Virus record (IMG/VR): IMGVR_UViG_3300037507_003370
Span: 64,001-128,000 of that record
Reading direction: 5' to 3' (one strand)
Length of the DNA stretch: 64,000 nt
DNA from: a virus
Lineage: Duplodnaviria; Caudoviricetes
The notes beneath the pieces were generated by a model. It did not search any database. It was not told the DNA's origin and saw only the letters and a list, made by a program, of their open reading frames with translations. Shown here in pieces: positions 45,119-62,063 of this stretch. The first letter of the stretch is position 1; the number at the start of each line of letters is the position of its first letter. The translations under genes and the position numbers were made by a program.

Positions 45119-45832
45119 TCATTTCCATTCTTCTGTATAACCCAATAGATCAGAGGGGATCTGATCAATTGTTTGTTGGTATTTGGATAACTCTCTTATA
45201 ATAGAAACCCCGTCTTCATGCATCAAGCTTCTAACGTTATTAGGAAGATTCATATTTGATAAAAGATTAATAGGATTTATATTTAGTCTTTTTGACATTA
45301 CATCTATAAAATTTATCTGATTGTTGCTAATTTTCGACACAGAGTCTCCTGTAATATCATCTTCTATTGAATTGGCCAATTCTTCGGCAGCAACAACCTT
45401 CCTTAGCTTCAGCGCTCTCCTCAATGCTCTACCTTCTGCTCTTGTTTCTGCTACTGCCACTGGATGGTTCCTATAAACCTTATCGCAGTTACCCCAATAA
45501 ACGTCTGCTGCGCCATCTACAGTGATAGTATTTAAATCAGGTATGTCTGCATTAGCATCATTTAAATGATAGGTTATAGAGTGAACAACAGTTGCCCTTT
45601 TTTCGTTCGAAATATCGGGAGATTGAGCCACTTTGCTTTGAGATCTTATTAATCTACAATTTAATGCTATTTCGAATATTCTTCTTAAGCCATCCGTTGT
45701 AGGATTGCCATCTATTTTTTCATCATCGGACAATAATCCTAAGACATAATCATTCCACTCCAGATCATTAGGTGTGACTTTCTTGATCTCACCGGAAACA
45801 ATTTGTTCTTCTACTTTTTCCTTTTTAGGCAT
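45119..45832 (-). CDS. Putative ssDNA-annealing/recombination protein (Rad52/ERF-like fold, uncertain)
   Basis: VAETRAEGRALRRAL motif and a C-terminal ISNNQINFI helix, as seen in phage SSAPs. AGGAG SD before ATG at 45832. Confidence 0.4.
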   Translation of the reverse strand: MPKKEKVEEQIVSGEIKKVTPNDLEWNDYVLGLLSDDEKIDGNPTTDGLRRIFEIALNCRLIRSQSKVAQSPDISNEKRATVVHSITYHLNDANADIPDLNTITVDGAADVYWGNCDKVYRNHPVAVAETRAEGRALRRALKLRKVVAAEELANSIEDDITGDSVSKISNNQINFIDVMSKRLNINPINLLSNMNLPNNVRSLMHEDGVSIIRELSKYQQTIDQIPSDLLGYTEEWK

Positions 45833-46634
45833 TGTCATCTCCTATTTCTATATAAGTTTCTTTATCGTTTTTAATTTTACTAATGGCTCTTATGAGATTA
45901 TCGTAAACAATATTGGCTCTTGTTTTAGAAAAATCTTTTGTTTGCTTTATCCTTATCAAAGATATTCCTTTACCAGCCAATAACCCAGTCTTCTTTGCAT
46001 CATATCCCTTGTTTCTTTTTAGGGACTCCTCGCCCCAAACAGGCTCAAAGTGAGATGGGCCATCAACCTCTATAGCTATGTTAAGAGTGGGAATAAAAAG
46101 GTCAATCTGTAATTTTGTATTTGACAGTATCTGTTCCTTGTGGAAACTAATAACATAGCCATCGTGTATTAATTTTTCTAGTAAGAATTTTTCAAGTTTG
46201 GAACCCTTCTTACTACTATCTCTTACTGCATTATTTGCCATCTTGATTATTTCTGATTTTTTATCATCGCTCATTTTATTCCATCGGTCCCTACTATTAT
46301 TTTTAATTTTAGAGACCTCTTCTTCTGTCATATCTTTCCATGTTTTATAAACACCAAGTCCTATTTTGTCTTTCACATCCTGAGTTCTGACTTTCCCTTT
46401 TGTTGGATGCTTATGCTTACCCGTATTCAAAGCATTCTTTTGAGCATCGCTTTTATTTCTTATATCTATATGAAATTTTTTAGCATCTCTTCTAATTTTG
46501 TTTGGATATGTATCATATTTTTTAGCTATGTCTATAAAAGACATTTTTTTGTTTACATACAGCTGTTCTATTATCTCTTTTTTTTTATTTTCATTATAAT
46601 TATCATAGCTTGATATATTCGAAGATTTTTTCAT
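45825..46634 (-). CDS. Vsr/DUF559-like endonuclease with HTH and NUMOD3-like DNA-binding repeats (putative free-standing homing endonuclease)
   Basis: SKLEK...IDLFIP.LNIAIEVDGPSH...D..K..LL..KG..LIRI nuclease core. N-terminal S..DIAKKY HTH and KGK.R..D.K.KI repeats. Confidence 0.75.
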   Translation of the reverse strand: MKKSSNISSYDNYNENKKKEIIEQLYVNKKMSFIDIAKKYDTYPNKIRRDAKKFHIDIRNKSDAQKNALNTGKHKHPTKGKVRTQDVKDKIGLGVYKTWKDMTEEEVSKIKNNSRDRWNKMSDDKKSEIIKMANNAVRDSSKKGSKLEKFLLEKLIHDGYVISFHKEQILSNTKLQIDLFIPTLNIAIEVDGPSHFEPVWGEESLKRNKGYDAKKTGLLAGKGISLIRIKQTKDFSKTRANIVYDNLIRAISKIKNDKETYIEIGDDNA

Positions 46635-49476: not shown

Positions 49477-50371
49477 AATCGACCACCGTGTTGTTAGCGA
49501 GTGAAAATATCTCTGAGATATCAGATATAAAATTATGGTTATTTAAAATATTCTTATTTTTTTCTATATTCATTTTTCTAATAATTTGATCGTACTGAGT
49601 ATTTAATTGAGAAAACATTGACAATATAGAAGCTGTATCCGGAGTAAAAAATATACTCTGGTTATTAGAAGAGTTTTGATGAGGGGTTAAAGAGACAGCC
49701 CCAAAAAAATTTGCATATAAATAATTTGTGAACTTATGTTCATCAATATGTAGTATCATTTTAGCAGATTTGATCTTGTTCATTAAAGGATCATCAGAAT
49801 AATCAGAGCAATGATCGACATTCAATCCTTCTTTTTTTAGTTCGTTGATAATTGATTTAATCATTTCCGGATCCGTATCACTGTGCAGAACTAAAACATC
49901 AATATTCTTATTTAACTGCAACAGATCTACTTGTCCGAAAACCTGATCCAAATTAGGTATAGAATGAAATACATTTGGATGACCAATAGACTTTATTCCT
50001 TTATATGTTTCATTGTCTAAACATAATATGTATTCATATTTAGATATAGCTTTTTTAACAGCTTCATTCAAGTTCACAATTCTACCTTCAATAATTAAAA
50101 TCGTTGACACGCCATCTATCGATTTATCTCTTTCGTTATCAGATCCTAATGTTACATTAAAATTATAACCCAAATCATTACTTGATGGACCTATGTAGCA
50201 ACCATCCATTTTTGCTGGCCCCGACTTAATAGTAAATGAGTGGTTTGATTTTTCACAAATTAAGCTGAATAAATGATCAAAACATCCTCCAATAGCATTA
50301 TATGCTATATGATAAGAGTCTTTATAGCTACATCTTCTTATTGCATTTTTTACACTATATCCAATAAACAT
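49469..50371 (-). CDS. Glycosyltransferase-like protein (GT-B/CgeB-like, divergent)
   Basis: KNIDVLVL...IINELKKEGL.V......L..KIKSAKMIL....ANFFGAV.L resembles the GT-B C-terminal half. Confidence 0.45.
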   Translation of the reverse strand: MFIGYSVKNAIRRCSYKDSYHIAYNAIGGCFDHLFSLICEKSNHSFTIKSGPAKMDGCYIGPSSNDLGYNFNVTLGSDNERDKSIDGVSTILIIEGRIVNLNEAVKKAISKYEYILCLDNETYKGIKSIGHPNVFHSIPNLDQVFGQVDLLQLNKNIDVLVLHSDTDPEMIKSIINELKKEGLNVDHCSDYSDDPLMNKIKSAKMILHIDEHKFTNYLYANFFGAVSLTPHQNSSNNQSIFFTPDTASILSMFSQLNTQYDQIIRKMNIEKNKNILNNHNFISDISEIFSLANNTVVDYA

Positions 50372-51510
50372 AATTTTTTCCCTACTTCTTGATAGCTGAA
50401 TTGATTGGTCATTAGTTTTGATTGATCTGATTTATATTTTAATAATTCTTTATTGGTTTTATAAATCTCTATTGCGTTTCTTATGGTCTGTCTGATACTT
50501 AAAACAGAAGGACTCATACCCACCTCATATTCTGAATCATGATCTAGAAGTCCATTACCAGAATATTCTACTTGTTCTTCTATTGCTGGTATAATAAAAC
50601 CATTATCATTATTCACGTAATCTGTTGGTCCTGTATTTTCTACACATATTGGAATATTTCCAAATCTCATAGACTCAGCTAGTGGTCTACAAAAAGCTTC
50701 TCCTTTAGATGGACATACGAATATATCACAGTAATAGTGTAATTTTAAGATATCATATCTGCTGATATTTTCTGTAATCAGAAGCACTTTACTACCCAGC
50801 CCTTTATGAAATCTCAATGTAGATAATTCTTTTTCTAAAGATTTGATAAAAGAATCTTTTTTCTCGTCTGGAATATGAGAAGTTTTAATTACCAAAACAA
50901 CTTTTTCTCTTTCCATTATTTCTGACCTAAAAGCCTTAATCAAATTAATGATATTTTTTCTTTTAATAAAAGTACCAATAAAGTATAACTTGATATAATC
51001 TTTATATTTTGTATTTAATCCTACAAAATCCCTATTGTCTGTTTCTATAACAGATATCGCGCTATCTATTTCTTCACACGGTATTACTTGAGATATTGTA
51101 TGTATTGGTTTATGAACACCTGAGTCTACTAATGCTCTTTTTTCTATAGAGCTTGGTACACATATTTTATCAAGCTGATTAAGTGGTTGTATTATTCCAT
51201 AATTTTTGGTTAAATTATTAACTTCAAATACATTTATGCCGACATTAGAAGATGTTTTGTCGGTATAGATTGCTTGAGGAAGCACTTTTTGTATGATAGT
51301 ATCAAATTTTGTAATTGTCTCTGATTCTAGAATCCTAACATATTCTGGTATGTTTTGAGCAATTTCTTGAGAAAAGTATACTGGGTGAATTTTTAAACTA
51401 TAGTTTTTTTCATTACAAGCATATATTATAGAGTTAAGATATCCTAGAGAAGCATTTCCCCAGCCATCATTTTGCCTATATGGAGCTATGTACAAAATAT
51501 TTTTAGACAT
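50350..51510 (-). CDS. Family 4 (GT-B) glycosyltransferase
   Basis: LYFIGTFIKRKNIINLIKAF...CDIFVCPSKGEAFCRPLAESMRFG...TGPTDYV. Start set at ATG 51510 (MSKNILYIAPY). Confidence 0.85.
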   Translation of the reverse strand: MSKNILYIAPYRQNDGWGNASLGYLNSIIYACNEKNYSLKIHPVYFSQEIAQNIPEYVRILESETITKFDTIIQKVLPQAIYTDKTSSNVGINVFEVNNLTKNYGIIQPLNQLDKICVPSSIEKRALVDSGVHKPIHTISQVIPCEEIDSAISVIETDNRDFVGLNTKYKDYIKLYFIGTFIKRKNIINLIKAFRSEIMEREKVVLVIKTSHIPDEKKDSFIKSLEKELSTLRFHKGLGSKVLLITENISRYDILKLHYYCDIFVCPSKGEAFCRPLAESMRFGNIPICVENTGPTDYVNNDNGFIIPAIEEQVEYSGNGLLDHDSEYEVGMSPSVLSIRQTIRNAIEIYKTNKELLKYKSDQSKLMTNQFSYQEVGKKLCLLDIV

Positions 51511-53182
51511 TATTTTTTGTCCTGTCATTGGCGTAATTAATAAAATCTTCTGTTTTAACAGCATCTGGATTAGCCAAAGCATATTTAGTTAAATTACGAT
51601 TCTCTATATTTTTATTTAAGAAATTAATCATATCTTCAAAATGATAAGGCTTTGTATTTGTGAATCCTTCTATGATAAATCCATAATCACTATGTTTTAA
51701 TAGGGATAGATTTCTCATATTATATATATCTTCTTCATTTAGATTATTATAGCAAACATGCTTGAAAGCATTGAAAGACTGGTTAAAGTTAGAACTTAAA
51801 TTTTTATAATCTATAGGTTTTTTATAGTAAGCATTATTAGATCCTGTCCATGATTTTTTTGTAGGTTGGAGCATTAATGAATCAAAAACAGACTCCCATA
51901 AATTAGCAGCATTATCCCAGGTGTATTTATTTTCTGTTAATTCTCTAGTTAGTTTAGATTTTTGTTGTTTTTCTTCGTTAGACATGCTAAAAAATTCGAA
52001 TAAAGTTTTAACTAAAATTCCATTATTTGGATAGCATCTAAATGCTTCTGTTTCTAATTCCTTAAAATATCTATCGGGAGGAATGCTAAAAGCATTTAAG
52101 TTTTTTATAATATCTGTCATAGCGCTATAATCAACAGATGCTAAAGGAATACCACAAGCGGCAGCTTCAACTTGTGGCATTCCAAAACCTTCACATATAG
52201 CATATTGAACATAAATATCGAATACGTTATATATTAGAGATAGTTGTTCAGACGAAACACCGTCTGTAACCGCTGGGAATACTGCACTTTTTTGTTTGCA
52301 ATATGGGCAATACTTAACTACATGATTGAAAGTATGGGCATGTATTCCACGGCATTTTTTACAAAAATATGTAAATAATACTCTTTTTGCAACTTCGTTT
52401 TCTTTTAGTAGCGCCGGTATATTCCACCCAGCATCAGGATACGTTGTATGCACATACAAGTACAAATCCTTACCATCTGCAGAATTATTTTTTTGATAAG
52501 TATTAAGTAAAATCCTAAAGCTTTGGAAAAGATCTGGTAGTAGTTTCCTTTTTTGATTACGCATTACGGTGCCAATAATACGAGCATCAGTATTAATCCC
52601 CAACTGTTTCCTAGCAAGATTTTTTTCTATGGGCTTAAATATATCTAGATCTACTCCAGGAGAAGCAGATCCGCAATATTTAATAAGGTTATTTGTTTGT
52701 TCAGATAAAACATGACCTCCCCATTCGCTATAGGACAAAACAGCATCTGCATCCATATAAACATCAAGCCATTCTTCTTGTTGTGGATAAGAGTCAACAG
52801 TTGGCATAACAGCCCATCTATAATAGGGCCTTAGTGGAGAGTATCTCTGGTATGAATTCATCCAAAAATCTCTTATATCAAAAACTATATCTGGCTTAAA
52901 GTCGTATACAACCCTATCAAATCTCCATTTACCAAAAGCATTTTCTCCAGAACTTGAATATTCTTGAAATCTTGGATCTTCTTGATTGACAGCATTTGGA
53001 TAATATCTCCATGGTATTTCCTGATCTCTTGGATCTCCAGGCATGCCATAAGATGCAAATTCTGCTATCTCATATTTGTTTTTTGCATAGAGTCTTTTAA
53101 GAATTTCTCTAGCATATACAGAATAGCCAGAACTTAAAAAGCTGGCTTCAGAACACATTAAAATTTTTGGTTTGGTTGTCAT
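51503..53182 (-). CDS. Family 4 (GT-B) glycosyltransferase with CxxC...CxxC insertion
   Basis: GTVMRNQKRK..PDL...YNVFDIYVQYAICEGFGMPQVEAAACG.P...VDYSAM. Start set at ATG 53182. Confidence 0.88.
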   Translation of the reverse strand: MTTKPKILMCSEASFLSSGYSVYAREILKRLYAKNKYEIAEFASYGMPGDPRDQEIPWRYYPNAVNQEDPRFQEYSSSGENAFGKWRFDRVVYDFKPDIVFDIRDFWMNSYQRYSPLRPYYRWAVMPTVDSYPQQEEWLDVYMDADAVLSYSEWGGHVLSEQTNNLIKYCGSASPGVDLDIFKPIEKNLARKQLGINTDARIIGTVMRNQKRKLLPDLFQSFRILLNTYQKNNSADGKDLYLYVHTTYPDAGWNIPALLKENEVAKRVLFTYFCKKCRGIHAHTFNHVVKYCPYCKQKSAVFPAVTDGVSSEQLSLIYNVFDIYVQYAICEGFGMPQVEAAACGIPLASVDYSAMTDIIKNLNAFSIPPDRYFKELETEAFRCYPNNGILVKTLFEFFSMSNEEKQQKSKLTRELTENKYTWDNAANLWESVFDSLMLQPTKKSWTGSNNAYYKKPIDYKNLSSNFNQSFNAFKHVCYNNLNEEDIYNMRNLSLLKHSDYGFIIEGFTNTKPYHFEDMINFLNKNIENRNLTKYALANPDAVKTEDFINYANDRTKNNV

Positions 53183-53209
53183 AGATAGAATTTTTATTTT
53201 AGTAAACAA

Positions 53210-53238
53210 TATGGTCCACGCTCTTAACATGGACCATA
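53210..53238 (-). terminator. Probable intrinsic terminator downstream of ssb
   Basis: On the minus strand UAUGGUCCAUG-UUAAGAG-CGUGGACCAUA forms an 11-bp stem with one G-U pair, followed by UUGUUU. Confidence 0.6.
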
Positions 53239-53251
53239 CTGCTTACATTAT

Positions 53252-53620
53252 TCAGAAACTAACGGCTTCTGCTTGTTCTGATGGCTTCTTAGAAACTTTC
53301 GTTATCTTGGAAAAATTATTTACTCTAACCTTAAGAGTATTGTGCTTAACTCCATCCTTTTCCCAAGCATCGTTTCTTAGAGTGCCTTCTACTAATACTA
53401 AGTCGCCCTTTTTAAACGACGAAGCAATAATTTCTGCCCCACTATCCCAAGCTTCGCAAGAAATAAATGAGGTAATCTTATCCTTATTGCCATTTGCCCT
53501 ACTAAATTCCTTTGAAACAGCAACTGTAAAATTAACTACAGATGTCTGCTTATCTCCAGACCCTACTGTTCTAATCTCAGGATCTCTAGTTAGATTACCA
53601 CGCAAAATTACAAGATTCAT
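53252..53620 (-). CDS. ssb: Single-stranded DNA-binding protein
   Basis: MNLVILRGNLTRDPEIR...VVNFTVAV...FISCEAW...KKGDLVLVEG.LR...W. AAGGAG SD 7 nt before ATG at 53620. Confidence 0.95.
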   Translation of the reverse strand: MNLVILRGNLTRDPEIRTVGSGDKQTSVVNFTVAVSKEFSRANGNKDKITSFISCEAWDSGAEIIASSFKKGDLVLVEGTLRNDAWEKDGVKHNTLKVRVNNFSKITKVSKKPSEQAEAVSF

Positions 53621-53657
53621 AATCAATCTCCTTTTAAAGGGTCAAAAACTCTATACT

Positions 53658-53685
53658 ATTGTATCAGATGACACGAGTGTGTCAA
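53658..53685 (-). promoter_or_regulatory. Sigma70-type promoter for ssb (TTGACA-N16-TACAAT, extended -10) with overlapping inverted repeat TGACAC-N4-GTGTCA
   Basis: Minus strand reads TTGACA CACTCGTGTCATCTGA TACAAT. The -35 box overlaps the dnaE-C stop codon. Palindrome at 53669-53684. Confidence 0.7.
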
Positions 53686-55292
53686 GTACTCGGCTCAAAA
53701 CATTTTTCTACAACGAATCCTTCACGACCATTTGTCAATTTATTGCCAATAAATACTAAAACTCTTTCTTCTTTTACTATATCAGAATACTTTTCATATT
53801 GTTCTGGAAATAGTATAACAGAATCAACCGTACCTGTTCCATCAAAGATTTCGATAAAGGACATTTCTGCTCCTTTATTTTTTCCTGTTTTAGTTTTGAC
53901 AATATTAACTCTGCCAATTTCTCCAATAATGGCTATTTTTTTACTATGGATACTATTTTTATAATCTTTACAGGTTACAATATTAAAATTACTCATATCA
54001 TAACAATCTGTTTTACTATAAGATATAGTTGTGCCAAGATAAAAAGACTCCATCTCTGTTATCCACTCCATAGTATCTTCTAAGCTATATGGAGGATTAA
54101 CTAAGCTTTTAATATATCCTTCTATAATAGTTTTTCTATTTTTGTTAATTTTATGGTTATTTAATAAAAAGGTTAATATAGATTCTAGTGTAGTAAACTT
54201 TTCGAATTCACAATTTTTTTCTATAAATTCGCATTCTTTTTTAGTTAAGTTAGTAATTATATCAAGATAAAATAACATTTCTTTTCTTGTTGATTTGAAC
54301 TCATCTAAACATCCACATGAAACTATAGCCTTTGCGGCCGAAATATTTATACGATTTAATAACAAGAATGCAACAGAAAACTTATTGGTGAATATATTTT
54401 TATCACATTTAGTTAGATTGTCCTGAATGCTGTTATAGACCGAATCTCCAACACCTTTAATATTAGTAATTCCAAAATATATTATATCATTAATTAATGA
54501 AAAGTCTTTCTTTGCGATAGATAAGTTTGGTATTCTAATATCTATATCCATTTCTATAGCATTTCTAACTAATTCTTTGATTTCCTGTTGAGGATCTATT
54601 TTATCTTTTGCAAACTTTAAATAAGATGTGAAAAATATTTTTGGAAAATGAGCCTTCGCATATGCTGATAAAAAACCATTAATAGCATAGCTTACAGCAT
54701 GGCTTTTATTAAAAGAATATCTTTGAGATTTTTCTATCCATCCAAATATTTGATCAGCTTCTTCTGAATTAACTATGTTATCTTTTATGCATCCTGATAA
54801 GAAGATTTTCTTAATTTTTGCCATTTCTTCTGGCTTTTTCTTTCCTATCGCTTTTCTTAACATGTCTGCTTCTTTGAGATCAAATCCGGCTATCGCTCTA
54901 GCTATTTGCATAGCTTGTTCTTGATAAATCATTTCGCCATAAGTGGATTTTAGAGAATCTTCTAATGCTGGATGGAAGTAATCTACGCTTTCCTTACCAT
55001 TTTTCTTATCTATAAAATGATCAGAAACGCTTTTATTATCTCTAATAGCCTCAAGACATCCTGGCCTCATAATACTAATTAAGGCAGACAGTTGTTCTAT
55101 ATTTTCTGGCTTCAATTTTTTGGCCATAGACTGACCAAGTCTAGATTCAAGCTGAAAACAGCCCTTAGTATTACCAGATCCAATTAATTCCCATGTCTTT
55201 TTACAGTTGAGATCGATATTTTCTGGTATAAACTTAATTCCGCTATCGTCTGCGGGGAATTTGCATCCGCATTCAAACGCAAGATACTTCAT
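53682..55292 (-). CDS. dnaE: DNA polymerase III alpha, C-terminal subunit (fingers, HhH, OB fold)
   Basis: GCFQLES, RPGCLE, TYGEMIYQEQAMQIA, ADMLRKAIGKK, YSFNKSHAVSY, GITNIKGVG, OB fold ending in VILFPEQY. Confidence 0.93.
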   Translation of the reverse strand: MKYLAFECGCKFPADDSGIKFIPENIDLNCKKTWELIGSGNTKGCFQLESRLGQSMAKKLKPENIEQLSALISIMRPGCLEAIRDNKSVSDHFIDKKNGKESVDYFHPALEDSLKSTYGEMIYQEQAMQIARAIAGFDLKEADMLRKAIGKKKPEEMAKIKKIFLSGCIKDNIVNSEEADQIFGWIEKSQRYSFNKSHAVSYAINGFLSAYAKAHFPKIFFTSYLKFAKDKIDPQQEIKELVRNAIEMDIDIRIPNLSIAKKDFSLINDIIYFGITNIKGVGDSVYNSIQDNLTKCDKNIFTNKFSVAFLLLNRINISAAKAIVSCGCLDEFKSTRKEMLFYLDIITNLTKKECEFIEKNCEFEKFTTLESILTFLLNNHKINKNRKTIIEGYIKSLVNPPYSLEDTMEWITEMESFYLGTTISYSKTDCYDMSNFNIVTCKDYKNSIHSKKIAIIGEIGRVNIVKTKTGKNKGAEMSFIEIFDGTGTVDSVILFPEQYEKYSDIVKEERVLVFIGNKLTNGREGFVVEKCFEPST

Positions 55293-55984
55293 GATTCTGT
55301 ATTTTTAAAAGACCCTTCGAATTTGATTTGCGGAGCTAGTCTTCTATGTAACTTCAAAAATCTTATCAATATTTCAGCACAATCTTTTACGTCTTTTAAA
55401 GCGTCGTGTGCTCCGTCTTTGGATATTCCAAGATATGATCGCAGATTATCCAGAGATATGCTTTTTATATCTTTATTATTTTCAAGCCAATAATAAGCTA
55501 AATTCATTATGTCTAATGTATCTCTGGGATAAAATAAGTCACACTCTCCATCTTTAGTGACATATCCAAACTTTTTTGTATATCTATCAACAATTTTAAG
55601 ATCAAATTTAAATATATTATATCCGGCAGTTACAGGAGCAGAAAACATATTTTTTTTTGTTCTATTTATATGGTAAAGCTCTAAATAGCTTTTGAACATT
55701 GACCAAGCCTGAGATTGACTAATAGAATTTTTCCATAAGTCTAAAATGTCAGATGCTTGGCATTTTTTTACTTTGGCATGAAAATCCAATATATCAGATT
55801 CTGCATAATCAAAATCTGGATTATCTTCTAACTTAGATGGTTTAACTTGGATATTAAATTCAGAGTCATCTATTATAGAAAGATCATAAGGGTCTATCAT
55901 GATTGCAGCAATTTGGACAGGACTGCATGAGGTTGGGTCTGATCCGTCGGTTTCGAAATCAAAAACGCATATTTTGTTTTTCAT
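55289..55984 (-). CDS. DnaQ-like DEDDh 3'-5' exonuclease (epsilon-like proofreader)
   Basis: ExoI VFDFETDG, ExoII GYNIFKFD, ExoIII HDALKD. ATGA-coupled to dnaE-C. Confidence 0.9.
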   Translation of the reverse strand: MKNKICVFDFETDGSDPTSCSPVQIAAIMIDPYDLSIIDDSEFNIQVKPSKLEDNPDFDYAESDILDFHAKVKKCQASDILDLWKNSISQSQAWSMFKSYLELYHINRTKKNMFSAPVTAGYNIFKFDLKIVDRYTKKFGYVTKDGECDLFYPRDTLDIMNLAYYWLENNKDIKSISLDNLRSYLGISKDGAHDALKDVKDCAEILIRFLKLHRRLAPQIKFEGSFKNTES

Positions 55985-58359
55985 AATGTCCTAAAAGGCA
56001 TATTTTCTATAGCCGTAGAAATGTTAAAAAGATTGTTAAAATAAATAGATGGTCCAATTACTGGACCGCAGGACCAAGGTGGTATTTCATAAGGTACGCA
56101 CCCTATCTTATAGTTGAAACTGAATGGTCTGTCAAGGGTTATTTTTGTGAGCGTTTGCTCTTTTATATAGTCCATCGAAACGATATTTAAAGACGCAAAA
56201 ACCTTTTCATAACGACGTATATCTGTATCTGTCGGTAATAATTGTTTCTTAGGAATCCAATATTCAATTTTTGTTGCACCTCTTTTAAATCTTGGAACAA
56301 AATTTCCAGACATAAATAAATATCTCAGATCCGTCCTGTCTGTAAAACAAGCAATTTTTTTATATGGTAACCAATTCCATAAGCCGTTATAAGATATAAA
56401 AGGAAAATTATCAGAATATGTTGTTATAAATTGTGGAGATCTATACCATTCATCTAATGATGTTGTCTCATCTCCGGTTTTAACTACCGGAATACCGTCA
56501 GCATCTAGATATGTTTGGTTAGCTAGTTTTGAATTGATAATAGTTCTGAATTTTTTGAAAGATTCTAGTGCTATAGGATACGGATCGTTTTTGACAGAGA
56601 GGTAAAGTTCTTCTAAGTCTATTTTATAGAAACCAAAAAATTTTGTTGTTTCCTCAGGATCTGTATCAGCATCCAAAAAATATTCAATCAATTGTTTTCC
56701 GTATATGCCAAGATCAAAGCTTTCTTTTTGGGTTGTTGAATCTATGCATGACCCGGGCCATCTAATGTCGTAACGCGCATTATTGCATGGTGGAGAGCTT
56801 TTATTAGGGTCTTGCGGAGATATTTTAGAATACGGATCAATGATCATCTGGTCAAAACTTGACTTTCCTCCAGAAATATAAAATCTAATTAAGTAAGGAT
56901 CTGTAATATAGTGATTTTCTATTAAAATATTATTTTGTTCATCGCAAGGAATGCCGTTAACCCCAGGCTGAGAAAGACTATTATCTTTAATTGTATCGTC
57001 TGGTTCTGGCATTGGTTTATAAAATTTTTCATAAACCTTGTCATCTTTTTCTACTTCCCGAATGTCCTTAACTGTATCAGTATATAGATATGGTTGAGTT
57101 TTTCTATGCCAAATATATGGTTTTTGTGTTTTAGGATTAAGTTTAAAAAAGTAAACAGGAGCAGATCTATTAAATCCATTAGATCTATCTTGATTAATAG
57201 GATCTGGATTGTAGTATTGTCCTTCTAATAGAGTATATTTTTTCTTATTTAAAAAATACTTAGGGAAAATATCATTTTTAGAAAATATTTCTTTAACACT
57301 TAATTTTTGTACTTGTGTTTTGATATTAAAAAGCTGTGTCAGATCTTCATCAAAAAATAATGCATCATATAATATAACATCTAATAAATTAGTTGTTTCT
57401 GTTATCATATATAATCCTCGAAGAGACCAAGGATCTATATTTACGTCAGAAAAAAGAGTAGAACCACTATGAGAACTATACAAATAAAAATTAGTACCAT
57501 ACTGTTCTAGTGCGGTAAATCTTTTTGCAATCGTACATTCGGATGCAAATGTGCCTCTATTTTTTTCTAAAATATTAGATACTGATATAGAACCTGGAAC
57601 TTCATATAATTCTTCTTCTGGAATCACGCTTAAAAGATCTCTATATGTTGCATGAAGACACAGTGCGTTGATCCTACAGCACCCGGCGTCTTTTTGGAAA
57701 GTTCTGATTTTTTTATATAGAACCCTATCTCTGTTATTTGGCTGTACTAATGTGAACACATCTCCAATTTGAAGAGATTCGAAGGTAGTAAATTCTTGTG
57801 GAAATAAATCTCCTGACCAGTCAGCATAAAAGTAAGATCCCCCACTTAATCTACCAAGAATAGTTTTTGGGCCGGCATTAATAGTAAGCCATTTATCTGA
57901 GTTTCTATTGTTTATATACAGAGGCTCTAGCTTTCTATAAACTGTTACAGACTCATCTGCAAAGTTTTGAAAGGTTCCTATTCCATATGCTCTGTCGCTA
58001 GTAGCATATATTGTACTAAAATAGTATCCAGCATTTATTGTTGTTTTTTTAATATCAAAAGATACAGGAATATCTATTTTTTTAGGAGATGTTATAAATT
58101 TAACACTTGATGGTTCTGCAACTTGTCCTTCTATGTTCGAACCCCAAACCCAAAACGTGCCATTTTCTTTCAATGCTACAGAGTGTGTCAGACCCATCCT
58201 TGCTTGAATCCAAGGAGAGCTATCGTTAGTACTATTTGTTAAAACCTCGTACTCTTTTCCTGCCTCTACTGGTCTATTGTGACCTAGTCCTAACTGACCA
58301 TGTCCATTATCCCCATATGCATACAATTTACCTTCAACAATCTTGATAACATGAGCCAT
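55981..58359 (-). CDS. RCC1/BLIP-II-repeat protein (792 aa) with an internal copy of the neighbouring small-protein domain
   Basis: LYAYGDNGHGQLGLG...MGLTHSVALKENGTFWVWGSNIEGQV...AGYYFS. C-terminal part not recognised. Confidence 0.75.
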   Translation of the reverse strand: MAHVIKIVEGKLYAYGDNGHGQLGLGHNRPVEAGKEYEVLTNSTNDSSPWIQARMGLTHSVALKENGTFWVWGSNIEGQVAEPSSVKFITSPKKIDIPVSFDIKKTTINAGYYFSTIYATSDRAYGIGTFQNFADESVTVYRKLEPLYINNRNSDKWLTINAGPKTILGRLSGGSYFYADWSGDLFPQEFTTFESLQIGDVFTLVQPNNRDRVLYKKIRTFQKDAGCCRINALCLHATYRDLLSVIPEEELYEVPGSISVSNILEKNRGTFASECTIAKRFTALEQYGTNFYLYSSHSGSTLFSDVNIDPWSLRGLYMITETTNLLDVILYDALFFDEDLTQLFNIKTQVQKLSVKEIFSKNDIFPKYFLNKKKYTLLEGQYYNPDPINQDRSNGFNRSAPVYFFKLNPKTQKPYIWHRKTQPYLYTDTVKDIREVEKDDKVYEKFYKPMPEPDDTIKDNSLSQPGVNGIPCDEQNNILIENHYITDPYLIRFYISGGKSSFDQMIIDPYSKISPQDPNKSSPPCNNARYDIRWPGSCIDSTTQKESFDLGIYGKQLIEYFLDADTDPEETTKFFGFYKIDLEELYLSVKNDPYPIALESFKKFRTIINSKLANQTYLDADGIPVVKTGDETTSLDEWYRSPQFITTYSDNFPFISYNGLWNWLPYKKIACFTDRTDLRYLFMSGNFVPRFKRGATKIEYWIPKKQLLPTDTDIRRYEKVFASLNIVSMDYIKEQTLTKITLDRPFSFNYKIGCVPYEIPPWSCGPVIGPSIYFNNLFNISTAIENMPFRTL

Positions 58360-58389
58360 GGTCCTTCCTTTAATCCTTTGATTTTATTT

Positions 58390-58578
58390 TTAACTATTGA
58401 TATTTTTAATTTCTACAACAGTATCATCTGACATAAAGTTTTGTTCATTGTTGCTAACTTTGACACAATTTATTGCTCTGCAACAGGAAACTCTTACTGT
58501 CTCTGTTTTTCTGTATGTTTCTCCACCAAAAGAAAAAACAGTATTTACGACTAAGTCTCTAAAAGCAGCGGTTGACAT
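58390..58578 (-). CDS. Small SH3-like/beta-barrel hypothetical protein with CC motif (62 aa)
   Basis: FRDL...VFSFGGETYRK...SCCRAINC. Fills the gap after dnaE-N and is homologous to a segment of the next gene. Confidence 0.75.
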   Translation of the reverse strand: MSTAAFRDLVVNTVFSFGGETYRKTETVRVSCCRAINCVKVSNNEQNFMSDDTVVEIKNINS

Positions 58579-58582
58579 AGTT

Positions 58583-60424
58583 TTACTCCGTAGTTAATAA
58601 TGACTGAATACACATAATTTTATCTAACATACCAATACCAAGTATATCAAATTTAACAATACCCAGGGCTTCCAAATCTTGCATTTCCATACCCGCGATA
58701 TTGGTACCCGTTTTAGTATCATACACCATAGGACAAACTTCATTTAAGTTATTGGCTGAAATAGCTATTCCTGCAGCATGTTTAGATTGATTGCATTTCG
58801 TTCCTTCTAATCTAATAGCTTGTTCAAATCTTTTTGCAAACATGCCGGATATGTTATTATCTTTATCTATTTTTACCCAATCCTTGAATTTATCTGGCGT
58901 ATTTTCTAGTGCCCACATAATTATAGAAGATTCTCCTGTTTCTTCTTTCATCTCTTGGAGATCATCAGCTATTTTAGCCTCATCTGGTATATTTTTAGTA
59001 ATTTGATTCATTTCATCAAAAGACAATCCTCCATATACTCTTAGGACTTCTTTTAAGGCTCCTCGTCCTTTCATAGTATTGAATGTAATCATTTGAGAAA
59101 CTCTGTTTTCTCCATATTTATTTTTTATATAGGATATGATTTCATCTCTTTTTGTCATTGGAACGTCTATGTCTATATCTGGCATAGAAATTCTATTTTC
59201 TGTATTACGTCCAGCATTATAAAATCTTTCAAACAGAAGATCATATTGTATTGGATTGATATTTGTTATCCCTAACAAATAAGAGACTAAACATCCAGCA
59301 GCACTGCCTCTTCCTGGTCCTGGCAACCATGAATTTTCTTTTACATATTTTACTATATCTTGGATTATTAAGAAATATCCAGATAAGTTAGCCCCTTGTA
59401 AAACCTCTAGTTCTTTTTTAATTCTTTCAACATATATATTTTTGTCTGATTCTGACAATGAATTTAGATCTCTATCTCTCCAGCCGTTTCTGCATAGTTG
59501 TCTTAAATACTCGTCTTCGTTTTCTATTACTTCGGGTAGTGTTGGCTTGTCTAATATATTATAATCTTCACACATTGAATCTATTAATAGAGTATTGTCT
59601 ATTTCAGATTCTGTATGTATTTTATTCATTTCTTCTCCGGATAATATATAGTAATTATCGGATTTGAAGAAAGCTCCCAAAGGAACCGCTTCGTCATTTA
59701 AAAGCTTTTTATTTATATCTTTAAATGTAGACTTAAGATTATTGCACAATAAAACCCTCTGATCTATAGCGTCTTCTTTATTTGCATAATGAGCATCATT
59801 TGTTGCAACAACTTTGATTTTTAATTTGTTAGATAAGTCTCTTATCATATCTGTTATAACTTTTTGTTCAGGACTATACTCTAGATCCATAAGCTGAGAT
59901 TCTAGAAATAAGTTGTCTCTGCCAAAAAGATCAATAAGATTATTAGCATGAAGTTTAGCCTGATTCATGTCTTCTTGCAATAAGCAATTATGCATGGTTG
60001 ACCCCATGTGTCCTGTGATACATATGAGTCCCGAAAGATCCATATCGGAGAGGTTCTGAATTGAGATCCTAGGCTTTCTATAAAAGTAGTCTGGCCTGTT
60101 GGTCTCAGAAACTAAACGAACTAAATTTTTCCATCCTGTATGGTTTTTGGCCAATACCAACATATGTTTCAGTTGTTGATTATCTTTGTTTTTTATTTTA
60201 GCATCATATTCGGATATATATAGCTCACACCCTAATATTGGTTTAATTTTTTTGGATTTTAGTGCTTGGTAAAAAGATACGCAGCCAGAAATTGTTCCAT
60301 GGTCTGTTATAGCACAAGACTTTGCTCCTATTGATAAACATCTATTTGCTATTTGTTCTGGCTTTGATAATCCGTCCAATAAAGAATAGTGACTATGAAC
60401 ATGCAAGGGTATATAATTTTTCAT
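58583..60424 (-). CDS. dnaE: DNA polymerase III alpha, N-terminal subunit (PHP, palm, thumb)
   Basis: LHVHSHYSLLDG, ITDHG, GCELY, TNDAHY, GPGRGSAAG, LLFERF, MPDIDID, KHAAG, KFDILG. Confidence 0.95.
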   Translation of the reverse strand: MKNYIPLHVHSHYSLLDGLSKPEQIANRCLSIGAKSCAITDHGTISGCVSFYQALKSKKIKPILGCELYISEYDAKIKNKDNQQLKHMLVLAKNHTGWKNLVRLVSETNRPDYFYRKPRISIQNLSDMDLSGLICITGHMGSTMHNCLLQEDMNQAKLHANNLIDLFGRDNLFLESQLMDLEYSPEQKVITDMIRDLSNKLKIKVVATNDAHYANKEDAIDQRVLLCNNLKSTFKDINKKLLNDEAVPLGAFFKSDNYYILSGEEMNKIHTESEIDNTLLIDSMCEDYNILDKPTLPEVIENEDEYLRQLCRNGWRDRDLNSLSESDKNIYVERIKKELEVLQGANLSGYFLIIQDIVKYVKENSWLPGPGRGSAAGCLVSYLLGITNINPIQYDLLFERFYNAGRNTENRISMPDIDIDVPMTKRDEIISYIKNKYGENRVSQMITFNTMKGRGALKEVLRVYGGLSFDEMNQITKNIPDEAKIADDLQEMKEETGESSIIMWALENTPDKFKDWVKIDKDNNISGMFAKRFEQAIRLEGTKCNQSKHAAGIAISANNLNEVCPMVYDTKTGTNIAGMEMQDLEALGIVKFDILGIGMLDKIMCIQSLLTTE

Positions 60425-61467
60425 TCTATGCTTCCTGGAGCTTTGTACTTTCCTACACTATAACCAGGAATCGTGTATTCGTCAACAACTGCATTCATAC
60501 CTTTTAGCTCTATGTCGTGTTTAACTTGCTCACACTTTGTCATAAATTGATTTTTTGCAATAAGCTGTCCATCTCTATACTCTATTGTGGGAAGAACGTG
60601 AGTGTTATCAAAATTACTTTTTCCAAAGTGACATAACTTACTACACATCCATGTTTTATTTAATCTAGGTTTTTTTGTATTTTTAATAACTTCAAATTTT
60701 TCTCTTAGCATACTTTCTGTTTTATAAATATCAGAACTATCAAATGTCATAGAAAAAGGACCGCCATCATTTATAAAAAATATCGTTATAATTATATGTT
60801 TAATTTCTGGATATAGTTTTTGTACAGCATAGAAGTATATCATTAATTGAGGATCTGTTTCTAGCTTAGACTGTGTTTTTTCTTCTCCTGTTGCCCAATT
60901 AAGTCTTTTTCCTGTTTTCCAGTCTATAATTTCTATGGTATCTTCTCCAACTTTTGTGATCAGGTCTATCGTTCCTTTTATAGCCAAATTTCCTTTTAGT
61001 GAATCTCCATTATTTAATTTATATGAATATTCTGCCCACTTTTTATCTATAGATATGTCGAATCTTTGTTCTGGACAAAGTATTTGTCTATTTCTTGGAT
61101 CAAAAAGACCGGAGCCATAATTTATTGCTTTATATACCCAGTCTCTACAATCAGAAAAATCTTTGTTAGACCATTTGTGATGAGAGAATTGTTCGCTGTA
61201 ATACTTGTATACAGATTCGATGATCTTGTCTAAATCATAATTATTTGTTAAAATTTCTCCAACTATTTCATCATTGCATGTTTTTTCGTTATTCTGCATC
61301 GCCTGTTTAATAACAGCTAAAATTTCTAATACTTTATGTACTATAGTGCCCTTATCTGCTTTTTGATTAGACGGACCTCTCCATCCTAAAACATATTCGA
61401 AAAAATATTGTTGCTCACACATACAATGAGTATTATACGACGAGCTGCGAAAATATGTAATTATAAT
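60421..61467 (-). CDS. PD-(D/E)XK exonuclease (RecB/AddB/Cas4-like), probable ATT/ATA start
   Basis: GTIVHKVLE, PEQRF, KGTIDLI, IIDWKTG, QLMIY, terminal C-x3-C...C. The in-frame upstream YFRSSSYNTHCMC motif has no ATG/GTG/TTG before it, and an AAGGA SD precedes ATT at 61467. Confidence 0.85.
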   Translation of the reverse strand: MIITYFRSSSYNTHCMCEQQYFFEYVLGWRGPSNQKADKGTIVHKVLEILAVIKQAMQNNEKTCNDEIVGEILTNNYDLDKIIESVYKYYSEQFSHHKWSNKDFSDCRDWVYKAINYGSGLFDPRNRQILCPEQRFDISIDKKWAEYSYKLNNGDSLKGNLAIKGTIDLITKVGEDTIEIIDWKTGKRLNWATGEEKTQSKLETDPQLMIYFYAVQKLYPEIKHIIITIFFINDGGPFSMTFDSSDIYKTESMLREKFEVIKNTKKPRLNKTWMCSKLCHFGKSNFDNTHVLPTIEYRDGQLIAKNQFMTKCEQVKHDIELKGMNAVVDEYTIPGYSVGKYKAPGSIE

Positions 61468-62063
61468 AGTATTATTCCTTTATTTTTGAGAAATTCTATA
61501 ATTTGATTATTTTGTTCATCTATATTCAGATTCTGATTATCAATAATTAAATCAAAATTATTTTGATCATATTGATCCGGATCTAATGCCATCTCACTAG
61601 CATGAAAAGAATTATAAGGATTTCTCGTCAGCTTAATAACAAAACCTCTAGCTTTTTTAACTGTATCAACTTCATTAGGAAATCTACAATCGGCAATTAT
61701 AGCCATATCTAAATTTTCTTTATTAATACGTCTAACTATAGCGTCAGACCAAACACTTTGTTTCATTCGTCTAAAAATATCTGTGCCAACAATTTGCATA
61801 ACTTCTCTAGCAGACAATTGGCGATTTTCCCAATAACAATCTACTAACTCATTTTTTTTAATATCCGATCCATAGCATTGTTCATAGGTCAAACCAAGTA
61901 TATCAATACATATATTTTGTTTCAATGGATCAGCAAAATTATATATAGCAATACTATTTTCAATAGTATGCTTATTGTATACAGATTGAACAAATTCGGA
62001 ACAAGTAGTTTTACCCGACTGTTTCCTTCCAGCAAATGCTATTATTTTAGTTTTAGTCATCAT
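61461..62063 (-). CDS. Deoxynucleoside monophosphate kinase (T4 gp1-like)
   Basis: IIAFAGRKQSGKTT, FADPLK, SAREVMQIVGT, IADCRFPNE. Confidence 0.9.
   Translation of the reverse strand: MMTKTKIIAFAGRKQSGKTTCSEFVQSVYNKHTIENSIAIYNFADPLKQNICIDILGLTYEQCYGSDIKKNELVDCYWENRQLSAREVMQIVGTDIFRRMKQSVWSDAIVRRINKENLDMAIIADCRFPNEVDTVKKARGFVIKLTRNPYNSFHASEMALDPDQYDQNNFDLIIDNQNLNIDEQNNQIIEFLKNKGIILL

What the first reader, a model, noticed from the sequence alone, without database searches (positions are those of the whole stretch)
53682..60424. Intein-free split DNA polymerase III alpha: two genes separated by about 3.3 kb carrying three other genes
Seen in sequence: dnaE-N (58583-60424) ends just after KFDILG, and dnaE-C (53682-55292) starts just before the GCFQLES motif. 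Established: in E. coli alpha all three catalytic Asp residues (DxD and the KFD motif) lie in the palm, and the fingers begin at about residue 560, so the break falls at the palm/fingers boundary. The cyanobacterial split-intein site (Y/CFNKSH) is intact here as YSFNKSH, and neither end has intein motifs. Inference: a heterodimeric C-family replicase that assembles non-covalently, with its DnaQ-like proofreader translationally coupled to the C subunit.
Basis: partly seen in the sequence, partly recalled or inferred. Interest (0 to 1): 0.8.

Follow-up and report, generated by a model that had tools for sequence, protein, structure and literature searches.

The report
Intein-free split phage DNA polymerase III
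A lake-water phage, like thousands of uncultured relatives, encodes its only DNA polymerase (bacterial Pol III alpha type) as two separate genes cut inside the catalytic core, with the proofreading exonuclease gene between them and no intein or intron to rejoin them.

Summary
dnaE-N (58583-60424, PHP+palm+thumb, all three catalytic Asp) and dnaE-C (53682-55292, fingers+HhH+OB) are separate minus-strand ORFs 3290 nt apart.

- **No rejoining mechanism found.** There is no Hint/intein domain and no Rfam intron. N-to-C frames vary among relatives, and independent lake metagenome runs tile the junctions.
- **The break is a family trait.** All 61 complete IMG/VR loci carry N / ~60-aa ORF / DnaQ-like exonuclease / C, with a gap of about 0.9 kb. 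The 3.3-kb gap comes from a lineage-specific RCC1-repeat gene. Of 150 cluster representatives at 50% identity, 143 stop at the same point.
- **Both halves are functional genes.** dN/dS is about 0.04-0.15. Five complete relatives have no other DNA polymerase.
- **Unsplit relatives exist.** They sit in the same module with the exonuclease elsewhere, in two clades nested among split forms.
- **The small ORF** is an SH3/KOW-like barrel of unknown role. It is subfamily-specific and so not required for the split.

Best reading: a non-covalent two-chain Pol III alpha with a composite active site. Assembly is inferred, not shown. This is a new variant of a known kind (compare phage gp43A/43B). First readers of this scan noted the same pattern on other genomes.

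The parts
58583..60424 (-). dnaE-N: PHP, palm and thumb of a DnaE-type Pol III alpha, 613 aa. It ends 17 residues after KFDILG at a TAA stop.
   Evidence: Pfam PHP and DNA_pol3_alpha. Aligns to Taq and E. coli alpha up to the KFD motif. 61 related loci stop at the same point.
59165..59185 (-). MPDIDID motif holding two catalytic Asp (equivalent to E. coli D401/D403)
   Evidence: invariant in alignment A5
58637..58654 (-). KFDILG motif holding the third catalytic Asp (equivalent to E. coli D555)
   Evidence: invariant in A5
58390..58578 (-). s62: conserved 62-aa ORF with motif RVSCCxxxNC, predicted to be a five-stranded SH3/KOW-like barrel. Function unknown. Specific to this subfamily.
   Evidence: Alignments A1/A4 with invariant F15, C32, C33, V55. 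AF2 pLDDT 92. Only weak fold matches. dN/dS about 0.22-0.35. Absent from distant split members and from unsplit relatives.
55981..58359 (-). 792-aa RCC1-repeat protein: a lineage-specific insert in the gap, present only here and in L001/L002
   Evidence: Pfam RCC1/RCC1_2 at residues 9-132. tblastn survey. Residues 191-256 weakly resemble s62 (hhalign E 0.004, probability 8%).
55289..55984 (-). DnaQ-like DEDDh 3'-5' exonuclease, 231 aa. Its stop overlaps the dnaE-C start (ATGA).
   Evidence: Pfam RNase_T. PHROG 192 'DNA polymerase exonuclease subunit'. Motifs FDFETDG, YNIFKFD and HDALKD. Lies immediately upstream of C in every split locus examined.
53682..55292 (-). dnaE-C: fingers, HhH and OB of Pol III alpha, 536 aa, with a short new N-terminal leader (ECGCKF)
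   Evidence: Pfam DNA_pol3_finger and HHH_6. phmmer to E. coli alpha 589-855. AF2 model residues 13-299 superpose on E. coli alpha 573-870, Z 19.
55257..55274 (-). C-half leader motif ECGCKF (residues 7-12). It is absent from unsplit relatives. CGC is invariant among 24 leader-bearing relatives.
   Evidence: predicted beta strands with pLDDT about 87
54699..54719 (-). YSFNKSH, the cyanobacterial split-intein site, uninterrupted here
   Evidence: A distant relative (L090) does carry a split intein at FNK|SH.
53252..53626 (-). SSB gene that closes the conserved cassette (context)
   Evidence: Pfam SSB; conserved position in all loci
60421..61422 (-). PD-(D/E)XK nuclease gene upstream. It overlaps the dnaE-N start by 4 nt (context).

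Best explanation
The phage's replicative polymerase is a DnaE-type Pol III alpha made as two separately translated polypeptides that associate non-covalently. N supplies PHP, palm (all three catalytic Asp) and thumb. C supplies fingers (nucleotide-binding motifs), HhH and OB. The active site is therefore composite. The genes lie in one tightly packed operon: PD-(D/E)XK / dnaE-N / small ORF / [RCC1 insert] / DnaQ-like exonuclease / dnaE-C / SSB. The exonuclease is translationally coupled to C and is the likely proofreader. No RNA or protein splicing is involved.

Shown: the gene structure, its conservation, purifying selection, the absence of joining elements, and the absence of any other polymerase in complete relatives. 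Inferred: physical assembly, activity, and the exonuclease acting as a subunit.

The space between N and the exonuclease is a tolerated insertion site; here it holds s62 and the RCC1 gene. One possible origin (inference only) is tandem duplication of an ancestral exo-dnaE pair followed by complementary loss. This would explain why the exonuclease always sits directly upstream of C.
For: - **Domain split.** PHP and DNA_pol3_alpha are in N; finger, HHH_6 and OB are in C. The catalytic motifs PDIDID and KFD are in N; RKAIGKKK and YSFNKSH are in C. The break maps to E. coli alpha at about 573-576, and the C model superposes on solved alpha structures at Z 17-19.
- **Conserved break.** All 61 complete IMG/VR loci have a real stop (TAA, TGA or TAG) after N, and all three relative frames occur between N and C. 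About 8000 N-half proteins of 605-633 aa were found. 143 of 150 cluster representatives at 50% identity end at the break.
- **Selection.** dN/dS is 0.04-0.12 for N, 0.06-0.15 for C and 0.04-0.14 for the exonuclease.
- **No joining element.** No Hint domain at either end, although inteins are detected elsewhere in relatives. No Rfam hit at E<=1, whereas the same scan finds group I introns in the gaps of Bacillus phage WH1 dnaE.
- **Only polymerase.** Five relatives rated 100% complete by CheckV (153-244 kb) have no PolA or PolB and only one DnaE palm.
- **Operon packing.** 4-nt overlaps or 4-30 nt spacers, and no excess of promoter- or terminator-like sites.
- **Independent data.** Other lake metagenome runs confirm the junctions.
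- **Precedent.** The intein-free split PolB gp43A/43B of Aeromonas phage 25 co-purifies and is active (PMC2988022).
Against: No direct evidence shows that N and C bind or that the pair polymerises DNA. No RNA data were available to exclude a rare spliced transcript. Unsplit relatives exist, so the split is not obligatory for this polymerase lineage. The OB-fold hit in C is below the Pfam cut-off. No phage sliding clamp was found in complete relatives, so how the enzyme achieves processivity is unknown.
Confidence: 0.8

Rival explanations
1. The halves are joined after transcription or translation: a trans-splicing atypical split intein, an intron with ORFs, or ribosomal bypass or frameshift gives one full-length alpha chain.
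For: DnaE is the classic host of split inteins in cyanobacteria and in 'fractured genes' of environmental phages (PMC2677866). Relatives of this very family carry inteins inside N and a split intein at FNK|SH. No RNA runs were available to test splicing.
Against: After the helix homologous to E. coli LRTLTIINWALEMI, only about 3-5 residues of N remain. The C leader has about 18 extra residues and no HN/C-S-T junction, which is too short for either intein half. There is no Hint Pfam hit and no Rfam intron at E<=1, with a positive control. The gap holds conserved, selected protein genes in varying frames and ranges from 0.85 to 3.3 kb.
Confidence: 0.03
2. The two genes are decaying or functionally independent remnants. 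The phage replicates with the host Pol III, and the halves have other roles, for example the PHP exonuclease alone.
For: No activity data exist. No phage clamp was found. One relative has an N-half fused to a cpYpsA SLOG domain (P0253), which shows N can acquire other partners.
Against: Both halves have dN/dS of 0.04-0.15, and catalytic and fingers motifs are invariant over a radiation reaching 39% identity. The halves always co-occur in the same order within the replication module. There is no other polymerase in complete genomes.
Confidence: 0.05
3. The split needs a dedicated assembly factor: the small SH3-like protein s62, possibly through a shared Cys/Zn site with the CGC leader of C, clamps the halves or tethers the exonuclease in a theta-like role.
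For: s62 sits between N and the exonuclease in all close relatives, with an invariant CC pair. It is absent near the unsplit relatives. The C leader with invariant CGC and C30 is also absent from unsplit forms.
Against: Distant split members lack any s62 homologue, and L090 has N directly followed by the exonuclease and C. The CGC leader occurs without s62 (L089, L091), and s62 occurs without the leader (L008, L026, L045). s62 is under weaker constraint (dN/dS 0.22-0.35).
Confidence: 0.15

Closest known systems
Split PolB gp43A/gp43B of Aeromonas phages 25 and 44RR (Petrov, Ratnayaka & Karam 2010, as summarised in PMC2988022)
   Same: A phage replicative polymerase encoded as two cistrons with no intein, with inserted DNA between them. 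The products co-purify and are active. This is the best functional analogy.
   Different: gp43 is B-family, not C-family. Its insert is a seg homing endonuclease or an untranslated spacer, not the proofreading exonuclease gene. It is restricted to a few phages, whereas this break spans thousands of sequences.
Cyanobacterial split-intein DnaE and 'fractured' DnaE genes of environmental phages (Wu et al. 1998; Dassa et al. 2009, PMC2677866)
   Same: The same enzyme (Pol III alpha) encoded in pieces. In fractured genes the pieces are adjacent with a gene between them. Relatives P0141, P0172 and L090 of this family are of that type.
   Different: Those breaks carry Hint half-domains and are repaired by trans-splicing, and they lie at other sites (Y/CFNKSH and others). 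Here there is no intein, the break lies after the KFD motif, and the gene between is a DnaQ-like exonuclease rather than a homing endonuclease.
Rossellomorea phage phiT1 gp20 / gp19 / gp18 (GenBank PV767480)
   Same: A cultured phage annotated with two 'DNA polymerase III subunit alpha' genes, broken in the same loop: N ends shortly after KFDLLG...INQGVAV and C begins before IPLDD...GVFQLES. A 49-aa ORF lies between.
   Different: Only about 31% and 28% identical. There is no exonuclease gene in the gap, and the small ORF is unrelated to s62. It is a single record, so a sequencing frameshift has not been excluded. No paper was found.
Intron-interrupted dnaE of Bacillus phage vB_BceM_WH1 (gp235/236/237)
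   Same: A phage DnaE annotated in pieces.
   Different: Its gaps are ORF-free and match the group I intron model (E 8e-6 and 9e-5). The window region has no such match.
E. coli Pol III core (alpha-epsilon-theta) and PolC
   Same: A C-family polymerase working with a DEDDh DnaQ-type proofreader. PolC also places the exonuclease inside the polymerase gene (established knowledge).
   Different: Alpha and PolC are single chains, and the PolC exonuclease is a fused domain inside PHP. Here the exonuclease is a separate ORF sitting between the palm and fingers genes. s62 shows no similarity to theta.

Membership tests
C-family DNA polymerase, DnaE type (Pol III alpha) | N-terminal PHP domain with metal-ligand residues | tested here: met
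   Pfam PHP E 1e-38. HVHSH, D17, H42, E67, H87, H139 and D210/H212 are present, and most are invariant in A5.
C-family DNA polymerase, DnaE type (Pol III alpha) | Palm with three catalytic Asp (DxD and KFD) | tested here: met
   MPDIDID at 414-420 and KFDILG at 591-596 align to Taq and E. coli alpha.
C-family DNA polymerase, DnaE type (Pol III alpha) | Fingers domain followed by HhH and OB | tested here: met
   DNA_pol3_finger E 4e-48 and HHH_6 above cut-off; OB below cut-off. Structural match to E. coli alpha 573-870, Z 19.
C-family DNA polymerase, DnaE type (Pol III alpha) | Catalytic core on one polypeptide | tested here: not met
   A stop follows residue 613 of N, and C has a separate start 3290 nt away. 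The break is conserved in 61 loci.
Split-intein DnaE (cyanobacterial or 'fractured gene' type) | Hint/intein half-domains at the broken ends | tested here: not met
   No Hint or Intein_splicing hit in N or C, while the same library detects them in P0141-P0143, P0172 and L090. The tails are too short.
Split-intein DnaE (cyanobacterial or 'fractured gene' type) | Break at a known intein insertion site (for example Y/CFNKSH) | tested here: not met
   YSFNKSH is intact at C residues 192-198. The break is at about E. coli residue 573-576.
Intron-interrupted phage polymerase gene | Self-splicing intron RNA in the gap | tested here: not met
   No Rfam match at E<=1 across 52-62 kb; positive control in phage WH1. 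The gap is filled by conserved ORFs.
Intein-free two-cistron replicative polymerases (gp43A/43B type) | Two cistrons with no splicing element | tested here: met
Intein-free two-cistron replicative polymerases (gp43A/43B type) | Products co-purify and polymerise DNA together | not testable with these tools
   Needs biochemistry.
Pol III core-like alpha-epsilon pairing | DEDDh DnaQ-type exonuclease encoded with the polymerase | tested here: met
   RNase_T Pfam hit; Exo I/II/III motifs; invariant in A3; adjacent to C in all loci.
Pol III core-like alpha-epsilon pairing | Theta-like small subunit | tested here: inconclusive
   s62 has no sequence or clear fold match to any named family.

The most novel reading that the evidence does not exclude
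The break is ancient and ancestral for a very large radiation of aquatic jumbo phages. These would then use an obligately two-chain C-family replicase, in which a PHP-palm-thumb chain docks with a co-translated exonuclease plus fingers-HhH-OB module. On this reading the few unsplit relatives are secondary re-fusions, which would make this a natural and reversible fission/fusion through a polymerase active site.
Probability: 0.35. Interest if true: 0.72.

Novelty: new variant of a known kind. Interest (0 to 1): 0.6.

Why it matters
Pol III alpha is the textbook single-chain bacterial replicase. Its only described natural splits are repaired by inteins or introns. Here a break between the catalytic palm and the nucleotide-binding fingers is left unrepaired, yet it is kept under strong selection in thousands of lake and ocean phage sequences.

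If the halves assemble as inferred, three things follow. This would be a natural two-piece C-family polymerase for studying palm-fingers communication and proofreader docking. It would be a ready-made split site for engineering. It would also be a marker for a large uncultured phage group. For annotation, the N and C genes should be named as two subunits of one enzyme rather than as truncated or duplicated dnaE.

Tried and rejected
- **Complex prediction**: s62 as partner against N 290-613, C 1-345 and the exonuclease scored 0.00, which is no verdict either way.
- **s62 as a remnant of DnaE**, for example its OB fold: hhalign against N and C gives E 0.4-0.5, so this was rejected.
- **Naming s62:** no Pfam, PHROG or PDB sequence match. 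Foldseek gives only weak EF-P/eIF5A/Tudor-type barrels (E >= 1e-3). The Atlas holds only viral hypothetical clusters.
- **Expression:** no RNA holder was listed among public runs, so expression and splicing could not be examined.
- **Close relatives in cultured phages:** no near-identical DNA in INPHARED, and the best protein matches are <=34% identical.
- **Literature:** four searches found only intein-related 'split DnaE' papers and none on an intein-free split. Nothing was found on phage phiT1.
- **Prokaryote genomes:** the genome-contig scan found one locus only, in an Alphaproteobacteria MAG from Lake Lanier. This is too weak for a host call.
- **Sliding clamp:** no PF02768 match in five complete relatives.
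- **Promoters and terminators:** the scan was no different from shuffled sequence.
- **s62-like segment in the RCC1 protein:** only weakly supported (hhalign E 0.004, probability 8%).


Full report
**1. Observation**

The minus strand of 53.2-63.2 kb carries a replication module. In order it holds:
- DnaB-like helicase
- Toprim primase
- dNMP kinase
- PD-(D/E)XK nuclease (60421-61422)
- dnaE-N (58583-60424, 613 aa)
- a 62-aa ORF, here called s62 (58390-58578)
- a 792-aa RCC1-repeat protein (55981-58359)
- a 231-aa RNase_T/DEDDh exonuclease (55289-55984)
- dnaE-C (53682-55292, 536 aa)
- SSB (53252-53626)
- two glycosyltransferases

N has the PHP and DNA_pol3_alpha domains. C has DNA_pol3_finger, HHH_6 and a sub-threshold OB hit.

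N contains MPDIDID (414-420) and KFDILG (591-596) and stops 17 residues later. C carries GCFQLES at 44-50, RKAIGKKK at 146-153 and YSFNKSH at 192-198. The gap is 3290 nt.

**2. Where the break lies**

phmmer aligns N up to Taq alpha residue 625, and C from E. coli alpha 589 or Taq 637. An AF2 model of C residues 1-300 (pLDDT 79) superposes on E. coli alpha 573-870 with Z 19 (model residues 13-299).

The cut therefore falls at about E. coli residue 573-576. This is one helix into the fingers domain as usually defined (fingers from about 561; my recollection of Lamers et al. 2006). The catalytic carboxylates are on one chain and the nucleotide-binding fingers on the other. About 12-18 residues at the C start (MKYLAFECGCKF...) have no counterpart in unsplit DnaE.

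**3. Nothing rejoins the halves**

- No Hint or intein domain is found in N or C. The same Pfam scan does find inteins inside relatives (P0142, P0143) and a split intein at FNK|SH in L090.
- The N tail is still homologous to the helix that follows KFD in unsplit enzymes. Only a few residues remain after it, and the C leader has no HN-Cys/Ser/Thr junction.
- Rfam at E<=1 finds nothing in 52-62 kb. As a positive control, the same scan finds group I introns in both ORF-free gaps of the three-piece dnaE of Bacillus phage WH1.
- In 61 related loci the N stop is TAA, TGA or TAG, and N and C occur in all three relative frames. This rules out readthrough or a fixed frameshift.
- Contigs from four other lake-water runs tile the region with 0-4 differences and no joints. 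They bridge the N stop, s62, the RCC1 start and the exonuclease/C junction.

**4. The split is a family trait and the 3.3-kb gap is not**

IMG/VR holds 144 relatives of N at 61-73% identity. In all 80 fetched loci the order Toprim / dNMP kinase / PD-(D/E)XK / N / exonuclease / C / SSB / GT is kept.

In the 61 loci with complete genes, the N-to-C gap is 848-921 nt. It holds a ~60-aa ORF and the ~230-aa exonuclease. The exceptions are the window and its two closest relatives (L001, L002), where the RCC1 gene adds about 2.4 kb.

The wider database gives the same picture. It holds about 8000 N-half proteins of 605-633 aa from lake, marine (Tara) and other metagenomes. Of the best 150 cluster representatives at 50% identity (39-62% identical to N), 143 terminate at the break. 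Sixteen of those carry large inserts inside N; one was checked and is a Hint+LAGLIDADG intein.

Four distant split members (36-43% identity; L088-L091) keep the same break and keep the exonuclease immediately upstream of C. Between N and the exonuclease they carry other genes (UDG, small ORFs) or nothing at all. So N...exo-C is the invariant core, and the N-to-exo interval is a tolerated insertion site.

**5. The genes are functional**

Pairwise dN/dS values (dS is near saturation, so these are approximate):

| Gene | dN/dS |
|---|---|
| dnaE-N | 0.04-0.12 |
| dnaE-C | 0.06-0.15 |
| exonuclease | 0.04-0.14 |
| s62 | 0.22-0.35 |

Catalytic and fingers motifs are invariant in alignments A5 and A2. 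Five relatives rated 100% complete by CheckV (153-244 kb, two with terminal repeats) have no PolA or PolB match and exactly one DnaE palm. The split enzyme is therefore the only polymerase these phages encode.

**6. Operon structure**

- PD-(D/E)XK and N overlap by 4 nt.
- s62 starts 4 nt after the N stop, behind a GGAG.
- The RCC1 gene overlaps the exonuclease by 4 nt (ATGA), and the exonuclease overlaps C the same way.
- Across loci the exo-to-C distance runs from -20 to +24 nt and is mostly -4 or -8.
- Promoter- and terminator-like sites are no more frequent than in shuffled sequence.

**7. Unsplit relatives and direction of change**

P0144, P0161 and P0212 (1102-1151 aa; 40-46% identical over N) are contiguous DnaEs. 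They sit in the same module, with the orthologous exonuclease elsewhere:
- directly upstream of dnaE in L085
- two genes upstream in L084
- downstream of the glycosyltransferase in L083

None has an s62 homologue. They also lack the CGC leader.

On trees of the N region they form two well-supported clades nested among split forms (FastTree; IQ-TREE). At least three state changes are needed. An AU test rejects placing all unsplit forms on one side of a branch (p 0.0026), although that grouping was chosen after seeing the tree.

With the Bacillus phage DnaE as outgroup, parsimony favours one old split and two re-fusions. However, the sample is biased towards relatives of a split query, and the root is not secure. 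I leave the direction open.

The exo-dnaE adjacency in L085 suggests one neutral route to the split: tandem duplication of exo-dnaE followed by complementary loss. This would explain why the exonuclease always abuts C. It is inference only.

**8. The small ORF s62**

- It is conserved in the window's subfamily, with an invariant CC in RVSCCxxxNC.
- It folds with high confidence (pLDDT 92) as a five-stranded SH3/KOW-like barrel.
- It has only weak fold neighbours and no sequence family.
- It is missing from distant split members and from unsplit relatives. It is therefore an accessory of this subfamily rather than a requirement of the split.

**9. Comparison with what is known**

- The nearest functional precedent is the intein-free split PolB gp43A/43B of Aeromonas phages 25 and 44RR. 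Its products co-purify and are active (PMC2988022).
- DnaE itself is known in pieces only with split inteins, in cyanobacteria and in 'fractured genes' of environmental phages (PMC2677866), or with introns.
- GenBank already holds one cultured phage, Rossellomorea phage phiT1, annotated with two Pol III alpha genes cut in the same loop with a 49-aa ORF between. It has no exonuclease in the gap, and I found no paper on it.
- Literature searches found no description of an intein-free split DnaE.
- PHROGs contains several partial DnaE families, so fragmented phage DnaEs are implicit in databases.
- First readers of this scan flagged the same pattern on at least six other genomes.

**10. Verdict**

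The feature is real and is conserved on a very large scale. It is best explained as a two-chain, non-covalently assembled Pol III alpha with its proofreader encoded between the halves (confidence about 0.8).

It is a new variant of a known kind: split replicative polymerases are known, but not this family, this site, or this gap content. Assembly and activity remain to be shown at the bench.

Habitat is lake water. The host is unknown. One related contig is binned with an Alphaproteobacteria MAG, which is only a weak hint.

Noticed in passing
window 55981-58359 (-): The 792-aa RCC1-repeat gene in the gap is present only here and in L001/L002. Residues 191-256 (…GCCRINALC…) weakly resemble the neighbouring s62 protein (hhalign E 0.004, probability 8%). 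A 2957-aa RCC1-containing virion-type protein lies at 18751-27624.
   Followed up: partly
L090:689-6128: A distant relative has a three-piece DnaE. It has the same intein-free break (N / exonuclease / C1) plus a split intein at FNK|SH, with a 307-aa ORF between C1 and C2. This is the 'fractured gene' arrangement.
   Followed up: partly
protein P0253 (762 aa): An N-half that ends at the usual break but is fused to a circularly permuted YpsA (SLOG) domain (Pfam E 1.6e-35).
   Followed up: no
L086:1-9216: The same cassette sits on a contig binned as an Alphaproteobacteria MAG from Lake Lanier. The N-half has an insert of about 1.1 kb near the PDIDID motif, and the PD-(D/E)XK gene has an insert of about 0.95 kb. 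Neither insert was examined.
   Followed up: no
window 50350-53230 (-) and 61461-62063 (-): Two or three group-1 glycosyltransferase genes and a dNMP kinase are conserved next to the polymerase cassette in all relatives, unsplit ones included. This may point to DNA base modification.
   Followed up: no
window 45825-46634 (-): A 269-aa ORF matches HNH/homing-endonuclease PHROGs (phrog_559, E 2e-12), downstream of the replication module.
   Followed up: no
window 1-44290 (+): A run of very large ORFs (up to 2957 aa) carries fn3, RCC1, CotH and FGE-sulfatase domains, presumably fibre or virion proteins. Complete relatives are 153-244 kb.
   Followed up: no
L082:4989-8271 (Rossellomorea phage phiT1): A cultured phage has DnaE cut in the same loop, with an unrelated 49-aa ORF between the halves and no exonuclease there. 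It is a single record, so sequencing error is not excluded.
   Followed up: partly
window 54270-54281 (-): The C-half carries EMLF (consensus RTxMLFEY, with R336 invariant and M339 nearly invariant in A2) about where E. coli alpha has its internal clamp-binding motif. No phage clamp was found in complete relatives.
   Followed up: no
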